Positions 1-38,658 of a stretch of DNA of 38,658 nt are shown piece by piece. Source of the stretch: a virus. The position numbers and the translations under genes are program-made. The stretch lies in UHGV virus genome UHGV-0206453, one strand, 5' to 3'. Numbering within the stretch: position 1 is the first letter of the stretch; each line of letters begins with the position of its first letter. The notes below the pieces were generated by a model, which saw only the letters and a program-made list of their open reading frames with translations, ran no database searches and was not told where the DNA came from.

Positions 1-49
1 TTGCTCCGTGTATTCACTCGTTGGAATGAATACACAGTGCTTATTCGTA

Positions 50-520
50 CTAATAAAATACCCAATTTTCTGTTTCTTGGTTGTGTCCAAAGTTATATTC
101 AATATCTGGTGTTGATGTATCAATATTTTTCATCCCATCAACAAGAGTTGATACAACAGCCAAATCTTGTTTTATTCTCATTAAATGGTATTTCTTCCGG
201 CGCAATAAACTTTCAATGGCAAGTTTCTTCGTTGGGAATGCAAAAGATCTTTCTGCATTTTTTGCTACTTTCTTAATTGCATATCTATTTCTCTTTTGTT
301 TCCATTCCTGTAACCACTGATTTGGTGCTGGTTTAAAATTAACAATCCAATGCGCAGGAACCAACCATGCATAATGCTCTGTCTGATGAAAAGCTATATA
401 TTGAAGTGCGAATATTTTGATTCCATCTTCTTCAACTGTCGCCTGGAATCTCCAGAAAACAGGCATTCCATCATGTTCAGTTTCTGATTCAGGAAAAGGT
501 ACGCTCCATGATTTTGTCAT
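50..520 (-). CDS. hypothetical protein (156 aa), translationally coupled to N; 3' two-thirds of gene strongly AT-rich
   Basis: ORF track 50..520; ATG 8 nt after N stop, preceded by GGTGAG; no family recognised; sits where lambda/P22 carry ral/sieB-type accessory genes. Confidence 0.55.
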   Translation of the reverse strand: MTKSWSVPFPESETEHDGMPVFWRFQATVEEDGIKIFALQYIAFHQTEHYAWLVPAHWIVNFKPAPNQWLQEWKQKRNRYAIKKVAKNAERSFAFPTKKLAIESLLRRKKYHLMRIKQDLAVVSTLVDGMKNIDTSTPDIEYNFGHNQETENWVFY

Positions 521-528
521 ATCTCACC

Positions 529-855
529 TCAAATAAGTGGTTTGCTGCCTAATTTCATTTTCTGGCGACCAACACAAGTCACACCCATTTCACTGCGTGG
601 CTTGCTGTACCATGTGCGCTGATTCTTGCGCTCAATACGTTGCAGGTTGCTTTCAATCTGTTCGTGGTATTCAGCCAGCACCGTAAGGTCTATCGGATTC
701 AGTGCGCTTTCTACTCGTGATTTCGGTTTGCGATTCAGCGAGAGAATAGGGCGGTTAACTGGTTTTGCGCTTACTCCAACCAACAGGGGATTTGCTGCTT
801 TCCATTGAGCCTGTTTCTCTGCGCGACGTTCGCGGCGGCGTGTTTGTGCATCCAT
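529..855 (-). CDS. N: antitermination protein N
   Basis: Internal ATG of ORF 529..987 with AGGAG RBS; protein MDAQTRRRERRAEKQAQWKAANPLL... matches lambda N (arginine-rich motif) nearly residue for residue. Confidence 0.9.
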   Translation of the reverse strand: MDAQTRRRERRAEKQAQWKAANPLLVGVSAKPVNRPILSLNRKPKSRVESALNPIDLTVLAEYHEQIESNLQRIERKNQRTWYSKPRSEMGVTCVGRQKMKLGSKPLI

Positions 856-1012: not shown

Positions 1013-1043
1013 GCCCTTCTTCAGGGCTTAATTTTTAAGAGCG
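1013..1043 (-). promoter_or_regulatory. nutL (boxA CGCTCTTA, boxB GCCCTGAAGAAGGGC hairpin)
   Basis: Minus-strand reading gives CGCTCTTAAAAATTAAGCCCTGAAGAAGGGC between pL and N, as in lambda. Confidence 0.75.
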
Positions 1044-1081: not shown

Positions 1082-1144
1082 TAGTATCACCGCCAGTGGT
1101 ATTTATGTCAACACCGCCAGAGATAATTTATCACCGCAGATGGT
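1082..1144 (-). promoter_or_regulatory. pL promoter with operators oL1, oL2, oL3
   Basis: Three 17-bp lambda-type operator sites TATCACCGCCAGTGGTA, CAACACCGCCAGAGATA, TATCACCGCAGATGGTT; minus-strand -35 TTGACA and -10 GATACT. Confidence 0.85.
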
Positions 1145-1331: not shown

Positions 1332-2267
1332 TTATTCTGCGTCAATATCTTCTACGGTTAGTAGAGGGTGTACCTTATCAAGCAATTGGATGAAATCTTC
1401 ATAAGTATCGCTTGCTTGCATGAGTGTTGTTACCCCTGTAAGTCTCTTTTGAAGAAGACCATATCCAGTTCCCTCTGATAGAAACTGATGCATTTTTGCA
1501 CCTGCCTTTTTTGCTTTTGCTCTTTCTTCCTTTAGCGCATTTCTTAGCTCTGGTGCCATGCGGTCATAAGTTATGTTATTCACAAGATGACCAAAGTATT
1601 GCGGTCTCCGCATGTTTGCTTTGAATGGGACTCCTCTGAGTCTACATAACTCCTCAAAGAATTCTGGCGGATATGTGCTTACCCATGGTCGCATTTCTTT
1701 AGCGATGAATTGCTCAAGGAGTTTTGCCAGTTCATCGCGCTCTCGTTCTTTTTGGTATCCAGTCGCTTCATCAACGAGCGCAACGGCGCCAACTCTAGCT
1801 AGAGCTTTATAGAGCGCTTTGGCTTTTGCAGCTGTATTCAAGTGATGCTTTTGTCGTAGGGCTCCATCCCTCTCAGCATCTGTCCATGCCTCGCAAAGCG
1901 CTGGTAGCATAGTAACGTCAATGCCATAAGCGACACCTGCACCTGATGTATTTTTATATACAATTGGTTCTGCTAGCGCTTCTCTTAGTTCATCGGAAAT
2001 ATATGGCTGAAGCTCATTTGCTTGGAGAACATATGGTAATTGACCTGGCTTCCCATTTGGGACCCATCTTGGCATTTTTGAGCCAACAGATACACCGAAT
2101 GTTTCTGCCAATCCATTTGCACCTTGCATTGAAACCACTCTGCGACCATCAGGCAAAACAGCACAAGAAACACCTGTCGCCATTAATCCTGTGTGAGTTG
2201 GCTTTGGAGCTGATCTAACGATTGCTGACATTGCTGCTGCTTTTTGAGCTCGTTTTTTAGTATCCAT
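1332..2267 (-). CDS. hypothetical 311-aa protein in rexAB-equivalent position (candidate superinfection-exclusion/abortive-infection protein; possibly P63C-like)
   Basis: Internal ATG of ORF 1332..2324 preceded by GGGGGA; not RexA/RexB; flanked by own AT-rich upstream region and terminators; family assignment from memory only. Confidence 0.7.
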   Translation of the reverse strand: MDTKKRAQKAAAMSAIVRSAPKPTHTGLMATGVSCAVLPDGRRVVSMQGANGLAETFGVSVGSKMPRWVPNGKPGQLPYVLQANELQPYISDELREALAEPIVYKNTSGAGVAYGIDVTMLPALCEAWTDAERDGALRQKHHLNTAAKAKALYKALARVGAVALVDEATGYQKERERDELAKLLEQFIAKEMRPWVSTYPPEFFEELCRLRGVPFKANMRRPQYFGHLVNNITYDRMAPELRNALKEERAKAKKAGAKMHQFLSEGTGYGLLQKRLTGVTTLMQASDTYEDFIQLLDKVHPLLTVEDIDAE

Positions 2268-2479
2268 AAATCCCCCATATGCTTGGTTATGGTGATGATA
2301 GCTTATTTCAAATAAGCAGGGCAATGATAGCTAAATCATCAATTAGCTACAAAATGCATCATTTTTATTTATCTCATTGATATGTATATATTTATCGATA
2401 AAATATTTTTAGCTATTCTGTGATTAAGCTAAATATCAATGCTAATTAATGCGTTAGCACAATGTGTGGATCACTACCA

Positions 2480-2510: not shown

Positions 2511-3227
<717 letters not shown>

Positions 3228-13921: not shown

Positions 13922-14357
13922 TAGCGATAATTTTACTCATCATCCTTCACATCTGGCTCTGTAGACAGGGTGATGATCACTTCTGGAGTGAATCCAGATT
14001 AAACATCTCATTGCTGATGCTTGATATTGAGCATCTGGCGCGCGGTAAGGGGCTGCGTTGAGATAAGAGCCAGTTCATTACAAAGCCTATCTACGGGTGG
14101 GCTTGATAATGAAACCGGAATTTATTCTGGGCAACCAGTTACGGCAGTACAGCGAAACAACCAAAGCCAGTAAGTGGGGAAATAACACTGGCAGCCACTG
14201 AAAGATGAACCTCCTGCCTTATGGCAAAAAAGATTCTTTGTAGTGGCGGACTGATGGAAAGACATCGGATAGAATAAAACAGTGGCTAGGGTAGCTCCCG
14301 AAAAGCGGAATCGTCACCGCCAGCCACTGAATCTATGACGAACAACTAGACGAGGTT

Positions 14358-31162: not shown

Positions 31163-32320
31163 TCACTCCACCTTTTCATCAAGCCAATCCGCCCACCATT
31201 GCATCATTTCTCTGCGCTTATCGAGATACTGAGCATGGTTGTAAATTCCACGTACAGATCCGCCGTTGGCATGTGCCAGTTGCACTTCAATGGCGTCGGC
31301 AGGCCATTCGTGCTCGTTCATAATCGTGCTGAATTCATGCCTGAATCCGTGACCGCTTTCCAGACCCTCATAGCCGATTTGTTTGATCACAAGCAGTACC
31401 GCGTTCTCGCAGATTGGCTTCTTCTTATCGTTGCGCCCGGCAAAAACAAACTCTGATACAGGCTTGGTGATTGAGCTTAGCGTAGTGAGAAGTTCAACTA
31501 CCTGGTCTGACATAGGAACCACATGAATTTTGCGTCCCTTCATCACACTGGCGTCAATGGTGATAATCCTGTTTTCAAAATCGACGTTCTTCCATAGCAT
31601 GGAACGAAGCTCTTTTGTTCTTAGGGCTGTGTAGCGCAAAACTTTAGTCGCAATGAGCGATACGATGCTTCCTGAAAATGTTGCCAGTGCTTTGTTGAAT
31701 GCAGGGATCTGGTCTGCAGGAAGAAACGGGAAGTTCTTCTTGCGGTATCCTTTCATGGCGTCTGCAAGGTCAGGTGCCGGGTTATATTTAGCCCTTCCGG
31801 TGACAATAGCGTAACGGAAAACCTCTCCGCATCTTCTGCGGGCTTTGTTGGCTCGCTCCATTGCACCGCGATCTTCAAATCTGCGGATTACTTCCAGCAG
31901 TTGCATCGGCTCAATATCCTGAATTTCAAGGCCGCCGATGATAGGTAAAATGTCGTCATCAAACATTTTTGCAAGTTCAGTCGCATACCCTACTGACCAT
32001 ACTTGCTTCTTGTGCTCGTACCATTCCTTGTAAATCGCACTAAAGGAATTGTTGTTAGACGAAGCCTTTTTCGCCTTTACCGGATCGATGCCAACCGAGA
32101 TGTCTTTCCTCGCAGTCCATGCTTTATCCCTTGCCTCTTGCAAAGTCATAAGCGGATATTTTCCGACGGTCAGGATTTTCTCCTTACCGTCAATCTTGTA
32201 GCGAAGCTGCCATACCTTTTTCCCGGATACAGGGACATAAAGGTACAGGCCATTACCATCGAGAAGGCGGTATGGTTTTTCTTTCGGCTTTGCTGCTTCA
32301 ATCTGCTTAACGGTGAGCAT
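31163..32320 (-). CDS. int: tyrosine integrase, P4-like family (N-terminal arm-binding domain)
   Basis: ATG at 32320 within ORF 31163..32356 (alternative GTG at 32356); LTVKQIEAAKP N-terminus; catalytic motifs HGFRH, LAHANGGSVRGIYNH. Confidence 0.9.
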   Translation of the reverse strand: MLTVKQIEAAKPKEKPYRLLDGNGLYLYVPVSGKKVWQLRYKIDGKEKILTVGKYPLMTLQEARDKAWTARKDISVGIDPVKAKKASSNNNSFSAIYKEWYEHKKQVWSVGYATELAKMFDDDILPIIGGLEIQDIEPMQLLEVIRRFEDRGAMERANKARRRCGEVFRYAIVTGRAKYNPAPDLADAMKGYRKKNFPFLPADQIPAFNKALATFSGSIVSLIATKVLRYTALRTKELRSMLWKNVDFENRIITIDASVMKGRKIHVVPMSDQVVELLTTLSSITKPVSEFVFAGRNDKKKPICENAVLLVIKQIGYEGLESGHGFRHEFSTIMNEHEWPADAIEVQLAHANGGSVRGIYNHAQYLDKRREMMQWWADWLDEKVE

Positions 32321-32575
32321 GGGTAAAAATCCGGTGGGTAAAATTATTTTATCCACTTTTTACCCGTCACGGAGTGCGGCTGTCAACGATCTGACGCGAA
32401 CCATTACGAACTGTGAATCTACGGAAGGCTTGATATTCAGGGGATTTTGCGGACTGGTACGGATGGGAGCGAACTGATAAATGGTGTCCCCTGCAGACAT
32501 CTACTTGAAGCAGCAGGGGATTGATTGGAATGGTGTTTTTTAGATGTGAGAAATATTTTACCCGCTATTTTACCC
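32321..32575. other. candidate attP: tRNA-Arg-like 3'-end core flanked by repeated TTTTACCC arm-type motifs
   Basis: Plus TGGTGTCCCCTGCAG (about 32482-32496) is the reverse complement of a tRNA 3' acceptor end plus CCA; five TTTTACCC/GGGTAAAA motifs in both orientations. Confidence 0.55.
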
Positions 32576-32770
32576 ATTGGCGCGGCTTAAGAGCTTATTT
32601 TTGAATTCACAATGGTCACGATATAACCATCTTGCTCGCCCGTGGATAACTTTGGCTTTAGGCAGGTCGCCGGACTTAATCCGGTCATAAATGAAGGTTT
32701 TACCGAAGCCAGTATCGGCCATGATGAATTTCAAATCAACCAGTGAATCAGGCTGTAGTTCGTGTTGCAT
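32570..32770 (-). CDS. AlpA-family excisionase/regulator
   Basis: 66 aa; FIMADTGFGKTFIYDRIKSGDLPKAKVIHGRARW typical AlpA/Xis HTH; GGAGA RBS. Confidence 0.75.
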   Translation of the reverse strand: MQHELQPDSLVDLKFIMADTGFGKTFIYDRIKSGDLPKAKVIHGRARWLYRDHCEFKNKLLSRANG

Positions 32771-32802
32771 GAGTGCTATCTCCGAATAGGGAATCGAACC
32801 TG

Positions 32803-32826
32803 CAAATCAGGCAATAAAAAACCGCC
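32803..32826 (-). terminator. rho-independent terminator upstream of alpA-like gene
   Basis: Minus-strand CCGCC-tgat-GGCGG hairpin followed by TTTTTTAT. Confidence 0.5.
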
Positions 32827-32878
32827 ATCAGGCGGCTTGGTGTTCTTTCAGTTCTTCAATTCGAATATTGGTTACGTC

Positions 32879-33178
32879 TTATTCGATGCGCACTCCTGGT
32901 ATTTCGCCTTTTGATATTGCTAAGTCATAAATTTGCGCGGCACTATACCCATCTCTCATCCATGAATCTAAGGCGCTAACAGCCTCGCTACGCTTTTTAT
33001 CTTCTCTCTCATTTTTGATATCAACGAGGACATCAACGCAATTAAGGCAAATGTGGATTTTGTCCTTACATTCGATCATGGCGGCTTTTCCATGATTTCC
33101 GCCACACAGTGAGCATAAATCTTCAGGGTCTGGCTGGTATTTCTGTAACGTTAGAGGGTTGAATGTTGAACAGACCAT
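32879..33178 (-). CDS. hypothetical Cys-rich protein (about 99 aa)
   Basis: Internal ATG of ORF 32879..33190 with GGAG RBS; CxxC...HxC...CxxC pattern suggests zinc binding. Confidence 0.5.
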   Translation of the reverse strand: MVCSTFNPLTLQKYQPDPEDLCSLCGGNHGKAAMIECKDKIHICLNCVDVLVDIKNEREDKKRSEAVSALDSWMRDGYSAAQIYDLAISKGEIPGVRIE

Positions 33179-33190
33179 AATCATCTCCAT

Positions 33191-33214
33191 AAAACAAAAC
33201 TCGCCGTAGCGAGT
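33191..33214 (-). terminator. rho-independent terminator
   Basis: Minus-strand ACTCGC-tacg-GCGAGT hairpin followed by TTTTGTTTT. Confidence 0.45.
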
Positions 33215-33364
33215 TCAGATAAAAGAAATCCCCGTCAGTGCGAGGATTGTTAGTTGCGCTCTGCTGCTGCCTTAGCCATTACCATATCCACCAAACTTCA
33301 CCAGACATGATTCTCGCAATCACTATCATCACCAAAGTGATAATCACAACTTTAACTGGCGGCA

Positions 33365-34147
33365 TCATTCACCATCCTGCTGCGGTGCTGCTGGATATGC
33401 TTTTCTCATCCAATGCGTGGCGTCATGAATAACGAACTGATATTCATCATCAGTAAACATCGAGCCATCCCACTGTAGCCCGTCAAGAACGCCTCTGGAT
33501 GGAGAGAATACCCAGATATCGAAATCGTATTTCTCCGGCATTCGCTCACTACAGCTTATCCAACCATCTGGAATTACCGGAGAGTTGCCACCCTGAACAG
33601 TAGGTATATCCGGACCTTTGCGAATCGCCCTGGCAAGATCGATTTGGTCGTCGTACAACCAGTCACCTGTTTGCGGATGATTGGCTTCTGCCAATTGTGC
33701 AGCCCACTCCAGGCCGTCTTTGTGTCCTTGCAGATAGTCCAGCGGTAACTCATCACTATTACTTACAGGTTCGGCCTGAAGCATGGCGGCGCGATATGCG
33801 TTCCAGCCAACAGCTTTTCCGTGTTCAAACGCGCTGTCAAAGTCATCATCAATTTCCATCGCAGCGGGCACAGATACCGGCGCTGGCGGGGCGGTGTAAA
33901 GCGGCGTTACTTCTCGCAGCGGGTCGGCATAAGCATTGCCACTATCGAAGCTGACGTTGTTTTTTGCGCCGCCGCCTGACAGCAGCCACGCCACCGGCTC
34001 CTGCTCCATGCCAGCCGTCAGCGCTTCCAGTGCGATTTTGAAGATTTGCGCATCGAGTTGCGCTTCTTCAAAATCAGGGTAATGGGTTGTTACCGCAAGA
34101 CGGCGCTCAAGCTTCTCAATCAACTGCTCTTTGGTGAAGGTGCTCAT
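33365..34147 (-). CDS. hypothetical protein with C-terminal DUF551-like domain
   Basis: 260 aa; C-terminus SCSERMPEKYDFDIWVF...ATHWM parallels the DUF551-like ORF at 14358; GAGGA RBS. Confidence 0.6.
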   Translation of the reverse strand: MSTFTKEQLIEKLERRLAVTTHYPDFEEAQLDAQIFKIALEALTAGMEQEPVAWLLSGGGAKNNVSFDSGNAYADPLREVTPLYTAPPAPVSVPAAMEIDDDFDSAFEHGKAVGWNAYRAAMLQAEPVSNSDELPLDYLQGHKDGLEWAAQLAEANHPQTGDWLYDDQIDLARAIRKGPDIPTVQGGNSPVIPDGWISCSERMPEKYDFDIWVFSPSRGVLDGLQWDGSMFTDDEYQFVIHDATHWMRKAYPAAPQQDGE

Positions 34148-34150
34148 GGG

Positions 34151-34585
34151 TTAGTCCTCACCTTTCTGTTGCACTACCGGAACCGATAAATCGACGCACC
34201 AGGAGATAACGCCGAATTGATCATCGTTCTGCGCTTCACCCCAAACGTAATATTTTGATCCTGGCCGACCCATTGCCGGGTCAAATACTTCTATGCCGCG
34301 TTCTGCCGTTAACGACATCAGAATCTGATGCAGGCCGCCTTTGATGTTCAGTGACGGAACGGTCAGGAAGTAAATAAACCCGTAAAGCAATTCGGCCTTG
34401 CGCTGGCTTCCGTAAAAATACGGGATTTTGTAATAATCCAGCGCGTCGTCGAGCCAGTCTGTTTTGTCGTGGAATTTCTGATGCCAGCGTTCCACTACCT
34501 CATCGACAGGTTGACCGGCAACCATTGCAACGCAGGTAGCCATGCAGGTGTTAAATGTTGGCTGCATTTGATGTTGAAGCATCAC
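34151..34585 (-). CDS. hypothetical protein (144 aa)
   Basis: ORF track; start overlaps upstream stop. Confidence 0.5.
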   Translation of the reverse strand: MMLQHQMQPTFNTCMATCVAMVAGQPVDEVVERWHQKFHDKTDWLDDALDYYKIPYFYGSQRKAELLYGFIYFLTVPSLNIKGGLHQILMSLTAERGIEVFDPAMGRPGSKYYVWGEAQNDDQFGVISWCVDLSVPVVQQKGED

Positions 34586-35166
34586 TCCCCCTTACCGATG
34601 CCAGCGGCGCGGTCTATGCGTTCGATTTCAGCCAGAATTAAAGCCCCTGCTTTTACCAGGTTGCGACGGCGGGCATTTGGCTTCCACCATGAAGCATCCC
34701 AAGGCCACCCCCACGGCTTGCCACCATTGCGGTTAACAGTTCCTGTTTCGTTTATGTAACAAACCGCCGCCATTGCCAGTTCCCCGTTGCAGTGTTCGTC
34801 ATCATGCTCTGGCATCCACCCCTCAACCGATTGTTGCCGCTGGCGCTCTGCTATCACATCCAGAATTGCAGGATTGAATGCACGCGCTTCCAGTTCTGCA
34901 ATGCGCTTCTCTGCTGCTTCAAGCGCAACGCGCAGCCTCCCAACCGTAAGCGCAATATCCTCGTTCTCCTTGTCGCGGCGTTTGATGTATTGCTGGTTTC
35001 TTTCCCGTTCATCCAGCAGCGCCTGGGTTGAAAGCTGCGATATAACGAGGTTGTTCTCTGCGTTGTTCTGTCCATCAAAGCCGGTCCATTTGATAACGTC
35101 TTCACATCGTTTATCACCGGGCGTATGCACCGCATACGTACCAGTAACCCGTCGAAATAAATGCAA
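34582..35166 (-). CDS. hypothetical coiled-coil protein; N-terminus possibly frameshifted
   Basis: ORF begins with TTG; a 38-codon ORF in another frame with AAGGAG RBS and ATGA-coupled ATG lies just upstream. Confidence 0.45.
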   Translation of the reverse strand: MHLFRRVTGTYAVHTPGDKRCEDVIKWTGFDGQNNAENNLVISQLSTQALLDERERNQQYIKRRDKENEDIALTVGRLRVALEAAEKRIAELEARAFNPAILDVIAERQRQQSVEGWMPEHDDEHCNGELAMAAVCYINETGTVNRNGGKPWGWPWDASWWKPNARRRNLVKAGALILAEIERIDRAAGIGKGE

Positions 35167-35226
35167 CCCATTCTCCTTGTGTTGCCTGTTTTGCTAACTC
35201 ACGCAGTGCCTGATAGTCAATCTTGC

Positions 35227-35808
35227 TCATTGGATGACTCCTTTACGAAGCTGTTCGGCGATATCTTCGAGAACGCCATCAGAGAATGAGCGATCAAAAT
35301 CGCCTTCCGGCGCATTAGCCATAAACTCAGTAGAGGTAAGAATCATCCGGGCAATATCAGCGGCGTTCTTCGCAGTATCATCAATAAAACCAGCTTCCCA
35401 GGCAGCCAGCATTCTGTTCGCCACAAAGTAAGCGCCCTCCTTGCGTGCTTCAGTCTTCACTTCAGCCAAGAAAGCGTCGGTGACTTGGGTTTGCGGCATC
35501 CTTCCGTCTATTGCGCAGATATACGCATCAGATAGTTCACCCTGCTCGCCGTCAAACACGTAGCAACTCTGTACGATAAATTTATTCAGCCACGCATTCT
35601 CCACAGCCAGCGCCGCGCACTTGGCCTCAAGGTTATCAATCGTGATTCCAGCAGAACGACACTCCCGCAACGCCGTTTCCAGTTTTGATTCAAGTTCACC
35701 GAACTTACTCACCAGATATTCAGCGTTTGTTTCGTTAACCTTTAAATCTCGTGGGATGCATTTACCTTTCAGAAAACCATCCATCTCAATTAGTGACATT
35801 TGTTTCAT
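35227..35808 (-). CDS. hypothetical protein (about 193 aa)
   Basis: ATG at 35808 overlapping upstream TGA (ATGA coupling) within ORF 35227..35826. Confidence 0.55.
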
Positions 35809-35969
35809 TTCTTCCCACTCCGCCACATCGCATTCAGATATTTGTTGTCATTAACAGAACCGAAACTATTTCTTTTAAGCAATTCCTCTCTCGATGGCAT
35901 TGGCTTTACGCGTTGGCGAATAATCATTTCTGCCGGAAGAATGCCGGGATTGTATGCAAGTCCTCTCAT
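35805..35969 (-). CDS. hypothetical small protein (about 54 aa)
   Basis: Internal ATG of ORF 35805..36002 with GAGGA RBS 7 nt upstream. Confidence 0.4.
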
Positions 35970-35979
35970 GGTAAATTCC

Positions 35980-36276
35980 TCAGTCATTACTGATAGCGCC
36001 ATAGCGTGAGCGGTAATTACGCAGGCGCGTGTCGATATATTCAGGGAAGTGGGTATATGTGGCTTTGCGGAATGGTCGGATTGATGTTTCGTTTATTCGG
36101 TCTTTTTCCTGTTTTTCTGCGAGTTGTATATCGCGTCGGTACTTACGTTCTTCTTTTGTTTCTGGTGGCAGAGCAAGAAACGCGCCGAGATTATTCTTGA
36201 TATTTTCCAGCACCTCCGATACGGAATTGCCGGAACAGCGGCGCGGGTCATCCGCACCATACAGAGGCGCTGGCAT
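35980..36276 (-). CDS. hypothetical protein (98 aa)
   Basis: ORF track; AGGAGA RBS. Confidence 0.5.
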
Positions 36277-36292
36277 ATTTTTCTCCTGTTGA

Positions 36293-36841
36293 TTATTTAG
36301 CTAATTTTTTCCAGATTGCTGAAACGTATTTGGCTTGGTGGATGGCATCATCAAGCGCGTTGTGGCGAGTTCCTTTGAATGGCATATCTCGCTTAGGGTC
36401 GAATCCTATTACCTTTCCAAGCTCGACGATTGTTCTTACGTCGCGGTCATTCCACCACTGCCACGGAACTGGCTGCCCTGTCAGCGAATAACTGTTGCGG
36501 AGAATAACGCAGTCAAATGATGCTCCATTCCCCCAAACCTGAACGAATTTGTGGTTAGCGTTCTTTATGATGAATTCAGATAACCATGAAAGAGCCGTTG
36601 AAAGCTCCTGAGTGTTGCTGGTTAGCGATTTTCTGGCTTCTTCACTCTGTTCCATCCACCATAAAATCGTTGAAGCGTCAGGACGCGCCCGATATCGCAT
36701 TGATGACTCAAGCGAGATATTTACCGAGAACTCTTCTCCTGTTTCTCCGGTATTCGGGTCAAAGAACACCGCCCCAATAGAAATAACAGGCGCGTATGGC
36801 CCGTTGCCCATTGTTTCAAGGTCAACCATTAAGTGATTCAT
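36293..36841 (-). CDS. DnaQ-like (DEDD) 3'-5' exonuclease
   Basis: 182 aa; MVDLETMG exo I motif, later H..ALDDA-type motif; AAGGA RBS. Confidence 0.7.
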   Translation of the reverse strand: MNHLMVDLETMGNGPYAPVISIGAVFFDPNTGETGEEFSVNISLESSMRYRARPDASTILWWMEQSEEARKSLTSNTQELSTALSWLSEFIIKNANHKFVQVWGNGASFDCVILRNSYSLTGQPVPWQWWNDRDVRTIVELGKVIGFDPKRDMPFKGTRHNALDDAIHQAKYVSAIWKKLAK

Positions 36842-36849
36842 GTAAGTCC

Positions 36850-37365
36850 TTAAATTGCGTGAATAGCGTGACGAGGGAAGGGGAGAGTTACTGGTGCAAA
36901 GGGTATATCGTCGTCAAAATCCATAGGTGGTTCGCTGTGATTCCCTTGCTGCTGAGGTTGCTGTCTTTGTTGCTGACCGTTATTTCGCTGAGGTGAAGAC
37001 TGTTCATTGCCTCCTTGCTTGCCACCAATCATTTGCATAGTTCCACCAACGCCCACGATGACTTCAGTAGTGAACCGATCCTGTCCGCTTTGATCCTGCC
37101 ATTTTCTTGTCCGCAATTTGCCTTCAAGATAAACCTCAGAGCCTTTTCGCAGATATTCGCTGGCAATTTCTGCCAGTTTCCCGCTCATTACCACGCGGTG
37201 CCACTCCGTCTGCTCCTTTTGCTCTCCAGTTTGCTTATCACGCCATTGTTCTGACGTAGCAACTGTAAGGTTTGCAAATGCCGTTCCTGATGGTGAATAT
37301 CTGATTTCTGGATCATGCCCAAGGCGACCAATAATGATCACCTTATTTACGCCTCTGCTTGCCAT
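36850..37365 (-). CDS. ssb: single-stranded DNA-binding protein
   Basis: 171 aa; [23 protein letters not shown]...TEWHRVV...[11 protein letters not shown] closely matches E. coli SSB including acidic tail. Confidence 0.9.
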
Positions 37366-38073
37366 TTATGCCGCCTGTTTTAGTTCGTTAACTCTGATGT
37401 TCATTACCTGAACGCATTTAGCCTGCGCCTCCTCATTTCCAGCCATTAATTGCCAGTCACGCTGATAACGCTCGATGAGTTTTTTCTTATCAGTTTCTTT
37501 CGATGCATAATCGCTGAAGTCTTTCAGGATTTGTTCGCAGTCAACCGATGGAGATTTCTGGTTGGTATTTTCTGGTGATGGTTTGTTATCTGATGCTGTG
37601 ATTGCCCATCCCGGCAGCGATGGAGGGAGCCAGTAAAATCCTGTTCCATCCTTCAGTTTTGCCCTGTGCCACCCCTGCTTTTTATCGAGAGATGTTTGTG
37701 CGAAACCTTCCTCAAGGTTATACAGATACCGACCGATTCCCCACTGAACGGCAGCGCGCTTCATTGCACCGGAACGACCACCTTTGACGGCTTCTACCTG
37801 CGTGTTTTCAGCAGCATCCCATTTGGTTACCCATTCGGAATCAATCTTGATTGATATGCCGCATTCAACTCCGCCGTTGTTGGGAATATCGCGGTATTCA
37901 TTGCGCCATCCTGCTTTGCCGCAAACATCGTCCAGGCGTTTCATGATTGCCCGGTTCGTGACATAAGCCAGCACCATAGCCCACACTTTGCCATCGCGTG
38001 TTTTACCGCTTTGCTGTATTCGCCATTCGATATCTTCAGGGCTGAATGGCTCATCGAATTTGTTCAAATCCAT
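37366..38073 (-). CDS. single-strand annealing recombinase, Rad52-like core with P22 Erf-like C-terminus
   Basis: 235 aa; C-terminal ILKDFSDYASKETDKKKLIERYQRDWQL...CVQVMNIRVNELKQAA matches P22 Erf C-terminus; GAGGTG RBS. Confidence 0.8.
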   Translation of the reverse strand: MDLNKFDEPFSPEDIEWRIQQSGKTRDGKVWAMVLAYVTNRAIMKRLDDVCGKAGWRNEYRDIPNNGGVECGISIKIDSEWVTKWDAAENTQVEAVKGGRSGAMKRAAVQWGIGRYLYNLEEGFAQTSLDKKQGWHRAKLKDGTGFYWLPPSLPGWAITASDNKPSPENTNQKSPSVDCEQILKDFSDYASKETDKKKLIERYQRDWQLMAGNEEAQAKCVQVMNIRVNELKQAA

Positions 38074-38081
38074 AATTCACC

Positions 38082-38270
38082 TCAGAATGGTAATTCGGAT
38101 GGGGAGGAAAGAAATTCGCGCTCATTCATGCGCTCTCTTTGTGCTTGCCATAAACAAAGTTGTTTCTTTGATTTATCTCCCGCTTTACGCCAGTAACGAG
38201 CCTCAGCAATGTGATATTCTCTTTTTAATCGACTTAACTCTGGAGTTTTCGCCAGCTCTACCGGAATCAT
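38082..38270 (-). CDS. hypothetical small protein (about 62 aa)
   Basis: ATG overlapping kil stop (ATGA) with GGAGG RBS within ORF 38082..38282. Confidence 0.5.
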   Translation of the reverse strand: MIPVELAKTPELSRLKREYHIAEARYWRKAGDKSKKQLCLWQAQRERMNEREFLSSPSELPF

Positions 38271-38380
38271 TTTGACCTCCATTTTCTGTAGGCTTCGACG
38301 GCCTCACGAAACATCTTTTCATCGCCAATAAAAGTGGCGATAGTGAATTTAGTCTGAATAGCCATAAGTGTTTTATCCAT
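38267..38380 (-). CDS. kil: Kil-like host division inhibitor (37 aa)
   Basis: Internal ATG of ORF 38267..38506; MDKTLMAIQTKFTIATFIGDEKMFREAVEAYRKW resembles lambda Kil N-terminus. Confidence 0.6.
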   Translation of the reverse strand: MDKTLMAIQTKFTIATFIGDEKMFREAVEAYRKWRSK

Positions 38381-38513
38381 TTTTTGGAACTCCTGGCTGA
38401 TTAAGTACGTCGATGAGTCGTTTCCATCCGTCACGTAATTTACGGGTGATTCGTTCAAGTAAAGATTCGGAAGGGCAGCCAGCAACAGGCCACCCTGCAA
38501 TGGCATATTGCAT
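38373..38513 (-). CDS. cIII: cIII (FtsH/HflB inhibitor), C-terminally shortened relative to lambda
   Basis: Hand-translated 46-aa ORF MQYAIAGWPVAGCPSESLLERITRKLRDGWKRLIDVLNQPGVPKNG with AAGGAG RBS; matches lambda cIII to residue 46; stop overlaps kil start. Confidence 0.8.
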   Translation of the reverse strand: MQYAIAGWPVAGCPSESLLERITRKLRDGWKRLIDVLNQPGVPKNG

Positions 38514-38575
38514 GGTGTGCTCCTTATTTATTTACACATAACGAAAACGCCTCGAGTGAAGCGTTATTGGTATGC

Positions 38576-38603
38576 ATATAAAAAGGCCCTCACATCGGAG
38601 GGC
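38576..38603 (-). terminator. rho-independent terminator upstream of cIII in leftward operon
   Basis: Minus-strand GCCCTC-cgatgtg-GAGGGC hairpin followed by TTTTTATAT; a weaker AACGC...GCGTT hairpin lies just downstream. Confidence 0.5.
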
Positions 38604-38658
38604 AAAGAAGATTTCCAATAATCAGAACAAGTCGGCTCCTGTTTAGTTACGAGCGACA

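What the first reader, a model, noticed from the sequence alone, without database searches (positions are those of the whole stretch)
50..520. AT-rich unknown gene translationally coupled to N
A 156-aa ORF starts 8 nt after the N stop codon with a GGTGAG RBS, so it is made whenever N is. Its 3' two-thirds is much more AT-rich than the lambda-like backbone and the product is basic with no recognisable domain. Genes in this early-left position in lambda and P22 (ral, sieB) act in restriction alleviation or exclusion, so this is a candidate anti-defence or exclusion factor. A perfect 9-bp inverted repeat (GTGTATTCA/TGAATACAC, about 9-37) lies just past its stop.
Basis: partly seen in the sequence, partly recalled or inferred. 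Interest (0 to 1): 0.5.

Follow-up and report, generated by a model that had tools for sequence, protein, structure and literature searches.

The report
Uncharacterised early phage gene beside N
The ORF is a real, strongly conserved phage gene (the same protein as HK97 gp45 and a 933W Shiga-toxin phage hypothetical protein) sitting where phage lambda keeps its anti-restriction and exclusion genes, but nothing found here shows what it does.

Summary
Window 50-520 (minus strand) is a 156-aa ORF starting 8 nt after the stop of a lambda-type N gene. Its Shine-Dalgarno GAGGTGA overlaps that stop. GC is 35% against 48% for the genome, pI is 9.05, and there is no Pfam, NCBIfam, PADLOC or PDB match.

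It is already catalogued: HK97 Gp45, 933W ST933Wp19, phi24B vb_24B_11c, PHROG 1636, all of unknown function. It occurs in 598 of 5,426 complete E. coli genomes and is under strong purifying selection (pN/pS 0-0.08).

It fills the variable slot between N and the conserved PreS/tL2a boundary block, where lambda carries sieB-orf28-ral. Close coupling to N is seen only in phages with a lambda-type N; HK97, 933W and H-19B have a 58-nt gap.

Best guess, at low confidence: an immediate-early, non-enzymatic, probably nucleic-acid-binding factor for host takeover or counter-defence. A prophage exclusion protein is less likely.

The parts
50..520 (-). 156-aa ORF, the same protein as HK97 Gp45, 933W ST933Wp19 and phi24B vb_24B_11c (PHROG 1636). 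Predicted 18.6 kDa, pI 9.05.
   Evidence: Purifying selection. Composition.
524..530 (-). Shine-Dalgarno GAGGTGA of the ORF. It overlaps the N stop codon (529-531) and lies 3 nt upstream of the ATG.
   Evidence: Identical in HK97, 933W, H-19B and PA28. No sequestering RNA structure.
521..581 (-). Conserved leader that travels with the ORF. In this window 529-581 codes for the end of lambda-type N. In HK97, 933W and H-19B the same bases are a 58-nt untranslated spacer (window 521-578), and their N stop codon sits at the joint (window 579-581).
529..855 (-). Lambda-type antiterminator gene N (108 aa).
   Evidence: Pfam N36 E=1.5e-26 and phrog_271. Translation.
1013..1043 (-). nutL: boxA CGCTCTTA (1036-1043) and the boxB hairpin GCCCTGAAGAAGGGC (1013-1027).
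   Evidence: Exact motif search. Identification as lambda nutL motifs is from my own knowledge.
1083..1111 (-). pL promoter (TTGACA, 17 nt, GATACT), which drives N and the ORF.
1..40 (-). First part of the conserved boundary block (Sf6 'bsq4'). It begins 9 nt after the ORF stop and contains the 9-bp inverted repeat (8-16 and 27-35), which forms a 12-bp stem-loop in the RNA.
38580..38658 (-). Rest of the boundary block, homologous to the lambda PreS (LPR1) sRNA locus. It ends in the tL2a intrinsic terminator GCCCTCCGATGTGAGGGC plus a T-run (38580-38603).
   Evidence: Contiguity across the window ends. Near-identity to the lambda ral-ea10 intergenic region. Terminator scan. PreS description: bioRxiv 10.1101/2024.10.31.621285.
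38373..38513 (-). cIII, the next gene downstream, with its RNA thermoregulator (Rfam RF01804, 38468-38526).

Best explanation
**Shown**
- Window 50-520 (minus strand) is a genuine gene under strong purifying selection. It is the same protein as HK97 Gp45, 933W ST933Wp19 and phi24B vb_24B_11c (PHROG 1636).
- It is an AT-rich single-gene insert that fills the variable slot of the early-left (pL) operon. The slot lies between N and the conserved PreS/tL2a boundary block, and in lambda it holds sieB-orf28-ral.
- It is transcribed from pL on the same RNA as N, with no intrinsic terminator before tL2a. It should therefore be made immediately after infection or induction, even before N acts.
- It has its own strong Shine-Dalgarno. 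In this phage that site overlaps the N stop codon, but the overlap is not a conserved feature of the gene.

**Predicted**
- The product is a soluble 18.6-kDa alpha/beta protein: a long beta-hairpin sheet packed against a 33-residue helix, followed by an ordered C-terminal tail.
- Across relatives that share only 19-28% identity, three features persist: a very basic centre (net about +10), mildly acidic N- and C-terminal parts, and an aromatic-plus-acidic C-terminus. No invariant polar residues suggest catalysis.

**Inferred**
- It acts by binding rather than by catalysis, most likely to nucleic acid or another polyanionic partner.
- It serves lytic growth as a dispensable host-takeover or counter-defence factor, not as a prophage-expressed exclusion protein.

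The identity and anatomy are about 0.95 certain. The functional inference is only about 0.3 certain.
For: - **Identity.**
  - PHROG 1636 match over the full length, E=5e-112.
  - 98.7-100% identical to HK97 Gp45, 933W, H-19B, phi24B and others in 88 phage records.
  - Present in 598 of 5,426 complete E. coli genomes.
  - The exact sequence is on at least 1,000 contigs.
- **Real gene.** pN/pS is 0-0.08 among 7 alleles. Homologues of 57-85% identity occur in Pectobacterium, Brenneria, Cronobacter and Rosenbergiella.
- **Foreign origin.** GC is 35% against 48%, the lowest in the genome.
- **Slot.** The lambda, Sf6, SPN9CC and mEp506 maps show different gene sets between N and the same boundary block.
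- **Expression logic.**
  - pL, nutL, N and the ORF are contiguous with no minus-strand terminator before tL2a.
  - The SD is strong and the RBS is unstructured.
- **Lytic rather than prophage role.**
  - No promoter of its own was found.
  - Sequence or fold relatives occur in Pantoea Lietduovirus phages and in phages of Achromobacter, Delftia, Erwinia, Tenacibaculum and Cellulophaga, always among small early genes.
- **Binding rather than catalysis.**
  - The AF2 model has pLDDT 94.4.
  - 11 positions are at least 60% K/R, and the centre has net charge +5 to +14 in all 41 members.
  - The only near-invariant residues are G33, E/Q46, T47, K87 and A101.
Against: - No experiment or paper bears on function.
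- AntiDefenseFinder, as reported for EHEC phages that carry the gene, does not flag it (PMC12502783).
- The promoter scan is a crude consensus search and could miss a weak or non-sigma-70 promoter active in lysogens.
- That the distant relatives' phages are virulent is partly my own knowledge, not something tested here.
- The position varies. In Pectobacterium and Brenneria prophages the gene lies next to xis-int. Guilt by position from the lambda slot is therefore weak.
Confidence: 0.33

Rival explanations
1. It is a functional analogue of Ral. It would be an early protein that alleviates host restriction (type I R-M or another nuclease-based defence), swapped into the same slot as ral.
For: - It replaces the lambda sieB-orf28-ral segment exactly, between N and the PreS/tL2a block.
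- This phage has no ral elsewhere in its early-left operon.
- In a set of EHEC phages, Ral is reported only in phi296 and phi367. The gp45 homologue turned up in phi315, phi345 and phi419.
- Immediate-early expression suits an anti-restriction role.
Against: - hhalign finds no similarity to Ral (probability 0.1%).
- It is 2.4 times larger than Ral.
- Apparent mutual exclusivity may only reflect one slot holding one cassette.
- Sf6 carries ral plus other genes in the same slot, so the slot is not functionally uniform.
Confidence: 0.12
2. It is a regulator of the phage's own development. As a nucleic-acid-binding protein it would modulate early transcription, RNA processing (for example maturation of the adjacent PreS sRNA or the N leader) or the lysis-lysogeny choice.
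For: - The basic centre is conserved.
- The gene lies between N and PreS/cIII and is made at the very start of the programme.
- In Pectobacterium and Brenneria it lies next to xis-int.
Against: - Neighbours are not conserved. The gene occurs with three different N alleles, without N or PreS in distant phages, and at the opposite end of the operon in Pectobacterium and Brenneria.
- Most lambdoid phages that carry PreS lack it: 368 records have the block and 88 have the protein.
Confidence: 0.15
3. It is a prophage-expressed superinfection exclusion or defence protein, the SieB/Rex-like half of the first reader's guess.
For: - The same slot holds sieB in lambda and SPN9CC.
- AT-rich, moron-like composition.
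- Very common in E. coli prophages.
Against: - It lies inside the cI-repressed pL operon and no promoter of its own was detected in the conserved leader or in N.
- It is soluble, with no hydrophobic segment.
- hhalign gives a probability of 1.7% against SieB. No PADLOC family reaches significance; the best match is Cas1_II at E=0.0097, 13 bits.
- Relatives occur in phages without lysogeny modules in view.
Confidence: 0.08
4. It is a chance ORF or decaying remnant in AT-rich spacer DNA.
For: AT-rich DNA also gives 79-91-aa ORFs on the opposite strand.
Against: - pN/pS is 0-0.08.
- The gene is intact in 593 of the 598 genomes that hold it.
- Length is conserved at down to 57% identity across genera.
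- 87 profile hits.
- The AF2 model is confident once a deeper alignment is used.
Confidence: 0.01

Closest known systems
HK97 Gp45 (NP_037731), 933W ST933Wp19 (NP_049479), phi24B vb_24B_11c (ADN68407); PHROG 1636
   Same: Same protein at 98.7-100% identity, and the same position directly after N and before the tL2a block.
   Different: In those phages N is the H-19B type and ends 58 nt upstream of the ORF's ATG, so the close coupling to N is absent. No function is recorded for any member.
Lambda Ral and SieB, with orf28 (the lambda occupants of the slot between N and tL2a)
   Same: Same genomic slot and the same operon. They are accessory, non-essential genes exchanged by recombination at the same boundary sequences.
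   Different: - No sequence relationship (hhalign probability 0.1-1.7%).
- Ral is 66 aa.
- The annotated sieB CDS is on the opposite strand in lambda and SPN9CC.
- From my own knowledge, SieB is a membrane protein expressed in the lysogen, whereas this protein is soluble and lies in the repressed operon.
Morons of lambdoid phages (extra genes inserted between conserved genes, with atypical composition, as defined from the HK97 and HK022 genome comparison; from my own knowledge)
   Same: A single extra gene with a large GC deficit, present or absent between otherwise collinear phages.
   Different: No promoter of its own was detected. The downstream terminator (tL2a) belongs to the conserved boundary block, not to the insert. 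It is therefore not an autonomous promoter-gene-terminator unit.
Lambda PreS (LPR1) sRNA with the tL2a terminator, annotated in Sf6 as boundary sequence 'bsq4'
   Different: This concerns the flanking repeat, not the protein. Measured back from tL2a, the hairpin lies at or just 5' of the roughly 88-nt PreS. Its role (a processing site?) is not established.

Membership tests
PHROG 1636 / HK97 Gp45 family | Full-length match to the family profile | tested here: met
   E=5.4e-112, residues 1-156 against profile positions 1-156.
PHROG 1636 / HK97 Gp45 family | Near-identity to the named members and the same genomic neighbourhood | tested here: met
   98.7% to HK97 Gp45, 99.4% to 933W and 100% to H-19B. 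In each it lies downstream of N and upstream of the tL2a block.
Ral (restriction alleviation) | Sequence similarity to lambda Ral, a protein of about 66 aa | tested here: not met
   hhalign probability 0.12%. The ORF is 156 aa.
Ral (restriction alleviation) | Location between N and tL2a in the pL operon | tested here: met
Ral (restriction alleviation) | Alleviates type I restriction in vivo | not testable with these tools
   Needs plating assays.
SieB (superinfection exclusion) | Sequence similarity to lambda SieB | tested here: not met
   hhalign probability 1.7% over 12 columns.
SieB (superinfection exclusion) | Hydrophobic, membrane-associated protein | tested here: not met
   GRAVY -0.58, and the charged and aromatic composition shows no hydrophobic stretch. 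The AF2 model is a soluble alpha/beta fold.
SieB (superinfection exclusion) | Own promoter allowing expression from the repressed prophage | tested here: inconclusive
   The only sigma-70-like site on the minus strand of 1-1400 is pL. The scan is a crude consensus search.
Moron (autonomous promoter-gene-terminator insert) | Atypical base composition relative to neighbours | tested here: met
   35.2% against 47.7% GC, the lowest 471-bp stretch in the genome.
Moron (autonomous promoter-gene-terminator insert) | Own promoter and own terminator | tested here: not met
   No promoter was found. The terminator downstream is lambda tL2a, inside the conserved boundary block shared with phages that lack the gene.
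Translationally coupled gene pair (N with the ORF) | Stop and start a few nucleotides apart, with the SD inside the upstream gene | tested here: met
   8-nt gap, and GAGGTGA overlaps the TGA of N.
Translationally coupled gene pair (N with the ORF) | Downstream start depends on upstream translation (RBS sequestered), and the arrangement is conserved among carriers | tested here: not met
   The RBS region folds no better than shuffled sequence (z=+0.77). In HK97, 933W and H-19B the N stop is 58 nt upstream.
PreS (LPR1) / tL2a block (for the inverted repeat) | Sequence identity to the lambda ral-ea10 intergenic region, ending in the tL2a hairpin and T-run | tested here: met
   Alignment is invariant over about 115 columns. 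The terminator is detected at 38603-38586.
PreS (LPR1) / tL2a block (for the inverted repeat) | Hfq-bound sRNA of about 88 and 68 nt that up-regulates dnaN | not testable with these tools
   Described for lambda in bioRxiv 10.1101/2024.10.31.621285. The family is not in Rfam 15.
AP2 / integrase arm-binding (three-strand sheet plus helix) DNA-binding domains | Profile similarity to an AP2 domain or to the lambda Int N-terminal domain | tested here: not met
Known anti-defence protein families | Match to a curated anti-defence model | not testable with these tools
   No anti-defence library is available here. A paper that ran DefenseFinder's anti-defence search on EHEC phages carrying this gene lists only methyltransferases, Ral and Gam (PMC12502783).

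The most novel reading that the evidence does not exclude
The gene founds a widespread, structurally novel family of immediate-early phage proteins. It is found from lambdoid Stx phages to phages of Pantoea, Achromobacter, Delftia and Bacteroidota hosts. Under this reading its conserved basic surface binds nucleic acid or a host defence component and neutralises a bacterial immune system. It would then be a new anti-defence mechanism, carried by 933W and by about 11% of complete E. coli genomes.
Probability: 0.22. Interest if true: 0.65.

Novelty: new member of a known kind. Interest (0 to 1): 0.38.

Why it matters
- **A gap in well-studied phages.** The gene is among the first expressed by HK97, H-19B, 933W and many Stx-converting phages. 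It is intact and highly conserved in about one complete E. coli genome in nine. Yet it has no assigned function and no paper could be found on it.
- **A testable candidate.** It occupies the slot where lambda keeps ral and sieB. Its predicted fold is confident and has no solved relative. It is therefore a well-defined, cheap candidate for anti-defence or host-takeover screens.
- **What a positive result would give.** It would add a protein family that reaches well beyond lambdoid phages.
- **What this stage adds.**
  - It links the ORF to named genes.
  - It shows that the flanking repeat is the known PreS/tL2a boundary block.
  - It shows that coupling to N is incidental.

Tried and rejected
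- **Direct family and sequence searches.** Pfam, NCBIfam, PADLOC and PDB sequence searches of the protein gave nothing significant. Searches with 41 family members or their profile also gave nothing.
- **Fold searches.**
  - The afdb50 library was unavailable.
- **AP2 / Int arm-binding idea.** The motif F-x-T-x3-A-x3-L suggested this fold, but hhalign gives a probability below 1%. Rejected.
- **Other occupants of the region.** Ral, SieB, Ea10, Sf6 gene 34 and SPN9CC_0015 are all unrelated.
- **Larger "relatives" as possible domain fusions.** P0059 and P0080 are repetitive, spurious hits.
- **Conserved gene partners.** None were found in six distant contexts.
- **Own promoter, sequestered RBS.** Neither was found.
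- **Antisense promoter-like site at 31-59 on the plus strand.** The number of such sites in the region is at chance level (2 found, 2.9 expected).
- **Locus search with the diverged alignment.** It failed because no conserved stretch was long enough.
- **Literature.** Searches by PHROG id, protein accessions, 'HK97 gp45' and the phi24B locus tag found nothing relevant.

Full report
**1. The observation**

The window's first 1.1 kb reads leftward, on the minus strand, as a lambda-type early-left operon.
- pL is TTGACA, 17 nt, GATACT at 1111-1083.
- nutL has boxA at 1036-1043 and boxB at 1013-1027.
- N lies at 855-529 and encodes 108 aa, with Pfam N36 E=1.5e-26.
- Then come 8 nt and the 156-aa ORF, at 520-50.

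The ribosome-binding site is GAGGTGA at 530-524, and it overlaps the TGA of N. The ORF is 35.2% GC, with GC3 of 26%, against 47.7% for the window. It is the lowest-GC 471-bp stretch of the whole 38.6 kb. The product has pI 9.05. It has no Pfam, NCBIfam, PADLOC or PDB sequence match. The 9-bp inverted repeat is at 8-16 and 27-35.

**2. It is a real gene and a catalogued one**

- The protein matches PHROG 1636 ("unknown function") end to end, E=5e-112.
- tblastn finds it in 88 phage records at 98-100% identity. These include:
  - H-19B, where it is unannotated;
  - HK97 (Gp45);
  - 933W (ST933Wp19);
  - phi24B (vb_24B_11c);
  - BP-4795, Stx2-86, Min27 and P27;
  - the P22-like phages Huey, Dewey and 683R2.
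- The DNA is in 598 of 5,426 complete E. coli genomes, with up to four copies each. PGAP always calls it "hypothetical protein".
- The exact protein is on at least 1,000 contigs.
- Among seven alleles, synonymous changes outnumber non-synonymous ones, giving pN/pS of 0-0.08.
- Homologues of 57-85% identity keep the same length in Pectobacterium, Brenneria, Cronobacter and Rosenbergiella.
- No paper could be found under any of its names.

**3. Where it sits**

The window is a circular permutation of a whole P22-like genome. Its last 79 bases continue directly into its first bases in Huey, H-19B and PA28.

Nine nucleotides after the ORF's stop begins a block of about 119 nt (window 40-1, then 38658-38580). 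This block is nearly identical to the lambda ral-ea10 intergenic region. That terminator is lambda tL2a. Sf6's annotators call the block "bsq4; boundary sequence". In lambda the block encodes the Hfq-dependent sRNA PreS/LPR1, of about 88 and 68 nt with its 3' end at tL2a (bioRxiv 10.1101/2024.10.31.621285). cIII and its thermoregulator follow.

The ORF is therefore the only gene between N and this block. The same slot holds different genes in other phages:

| Phage | Genes between N and the boundary block |
|---|---|
| Lambda | sieB, orf28, ral |
| Sf6 | genes 36, 35 (ral), 34 |
| SPN9CC | sieB plus one unknown gene |
| mEp506 | three small unknown genes |

The inverted repeat, however, belongs to the conserved boundary block, not to the gene.

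**4. Coupling to N is incidental**

HK97, 933W and H-19B carry a different N allele, and its stop codon lies exactly at the left edge of sequence identity. The next 58 nt are identical to what in this window encodes the last 17 residues of lambda-type N. In those phages they are an untranslated spacer before the same SD and ATG. The cassette was therefore first joined to a lambda-type N and later moved with a relic of that gene's 3' end.

The RBS region folds no better than shuffled sequence (z=+0.77). Nothing suggests that initiation depends on ribosomes arriving from N.

What is general is co-transcription. No intrinsic terminator lies between pL and tL2a. The gene should therefore be expressed at the very start, before N-mediated antitermination is needed. 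That last step is my inference.

**5. The protein**

With 22 close homologues AlphaFold gave a poor model, pLDDT 65. A profile search of 1.8 billion cluster representatives added about 70 proteins of 130-155 aa at 19-28% identity. With these in the alignment the model reached pLDDT 94.4 and pTM 0.80.

The predicted elements are:
- strands 19-30, 33-46 and 50-55;
- two short helices;
- strand 83-86;
- a 33-residue helix, 98-130;
- an ordered C-terminal tail.

In six distant contexts the gene stands alone among small early genes, with no recurring neighbour. In Pectobacterium and Brenneria prophages it is the last gene before xis-int.

Across the 41 aligned members:
- the centre (residues 74-120) has net charge +5 to +14, mean +10;
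- 11 positions are at least 60% Lys or Arg;
- the ends are mildly acidic;
- the C-terminus is aromatic followed by acidic;
- the only near-invariant residues are G33, E/Q46, T47, K87 and A101.

This is the signature of a binding protein, not an enzyme.

**6. Interpretation**

- **Shown:** the identity, the slot, the operon logic and the purifying selection.
- **Predicted:** the fold and the charge pattern.
- **Inferred, at low confidence:** the protein binds a polyanion, most likely nucleic acid. It helps lytic growth as an accessory host-takeover or counter-defence factor.

The exclusion alternative is weakened on four counts:
- no promoter of its own was found;
- the protein is soluble;
- it has no similarity to SieB;
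- relatives occur in phages with no lysogeny genes in view.

A specific Ral-like role is possible. This phage has no ral. In one EHEC phage set, Ral and this gene appear in different phages. But there is no sequence relationship to Ral, and one slot holding one cassette would give the same pattern.

A role in the phage's own regulation is disfavoured by the lack of any conserved neighbour. A motif resemblance to AP2 and integrase arm-binding domains was tested and rejected.

**7. Verdict**

The finding is a correct description of a known but uncharacterised gene family in a well-known variable slot of lambdoid phages. It is not a new kind of system on present evidence. It is a sound candidate for experimental screening, given four properties: how common it is, its immediate-early position, its presence in Stx phages, and a confident fold without solved relatives.

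Interest is moderate (0.38). The most novel reading still open is a new anti-defence family, with a probability of about 0.2.

Noticed in passing
window 1332-2324 (minus strand): A 330-aa P63C-domain protein (Pfam PF10546, E=7.5e-23; phrog_2384, unknown function; no PADLOC hit) sits in the rexAB slot between cI (2511-3224) and pL. A terminator-like hairpin follows at 1322-1305, and the DNA at 2250-2475 is 26-29% GC. It is a candidate prophage-expressed accessory or defence gene.
   Followed up: partly
window 38580-38658 plus 1-40 (minus strand): A homologue of the lambda PreS (LPR1) sRNA locus with the tL2a terminator, nearly identical to the lambda ral-ea10 intergenic region. The same block is annotated 'bsq4 boundary sequence' in Sf6 and matches 368 phage records. 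It is not represented in Rfam 15.
   Followed up: yes
whole window: The window is a circular permutation of a complete P22-like (Lederbergvirus-type) genome. It is close to Escherichia phage Huey (PQ850609, 38,575 bp). The cut falls just downstream of the ORF, inside the PreS/tL2a boundary block.
   Followed up: partly
window 521-581; L013 2443-2500; L014 2443-2500: The 58-nt untranslated leader upstream of gp45 in HK97, 933W and H-19B is a relic of the 3' end of a lambda-type N gene. The H-19B-type N stop codon lies exactly at the recombination joint. This is a clear footprint of module exchange at a gene boundary.
   Followed up: yes
window 14279-14341 (plus strand): An Rfam int-alpA sRNA match (42 bits against a gathering score of 35.8) lies far from the integrase gene (31163-32356), in the plus-strand gene block upstream of the structural genes.
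   Followed up: no
window 38468-38526 (minus strand): The lambda cIII thermoregulator RNA element (RF01804, 88.5 bits) overlaps the start of cIII (38373-38513).
   Followed up: no
L007 5001-5477 and L008 5001-5477: In Brenneria alni and Pectobacterium betavasculorum prophages the 63-64% identical homologue is the last gene before xis-int, at the attachment-site end of the operon. In L008 the prophage lies next to icd. The family is therefore not tied to N.
   Followed up: partly
window 32400-38300 (minus strand): The rest of the early-left operon carries a small 'recombinase' ORF (phrog_1723), Erf, SSB, an exonuclease, Abc2 (anti-RecBCD) and five proteins of unknown function. There is no ral or sieB homologue.
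   Followed up: partly
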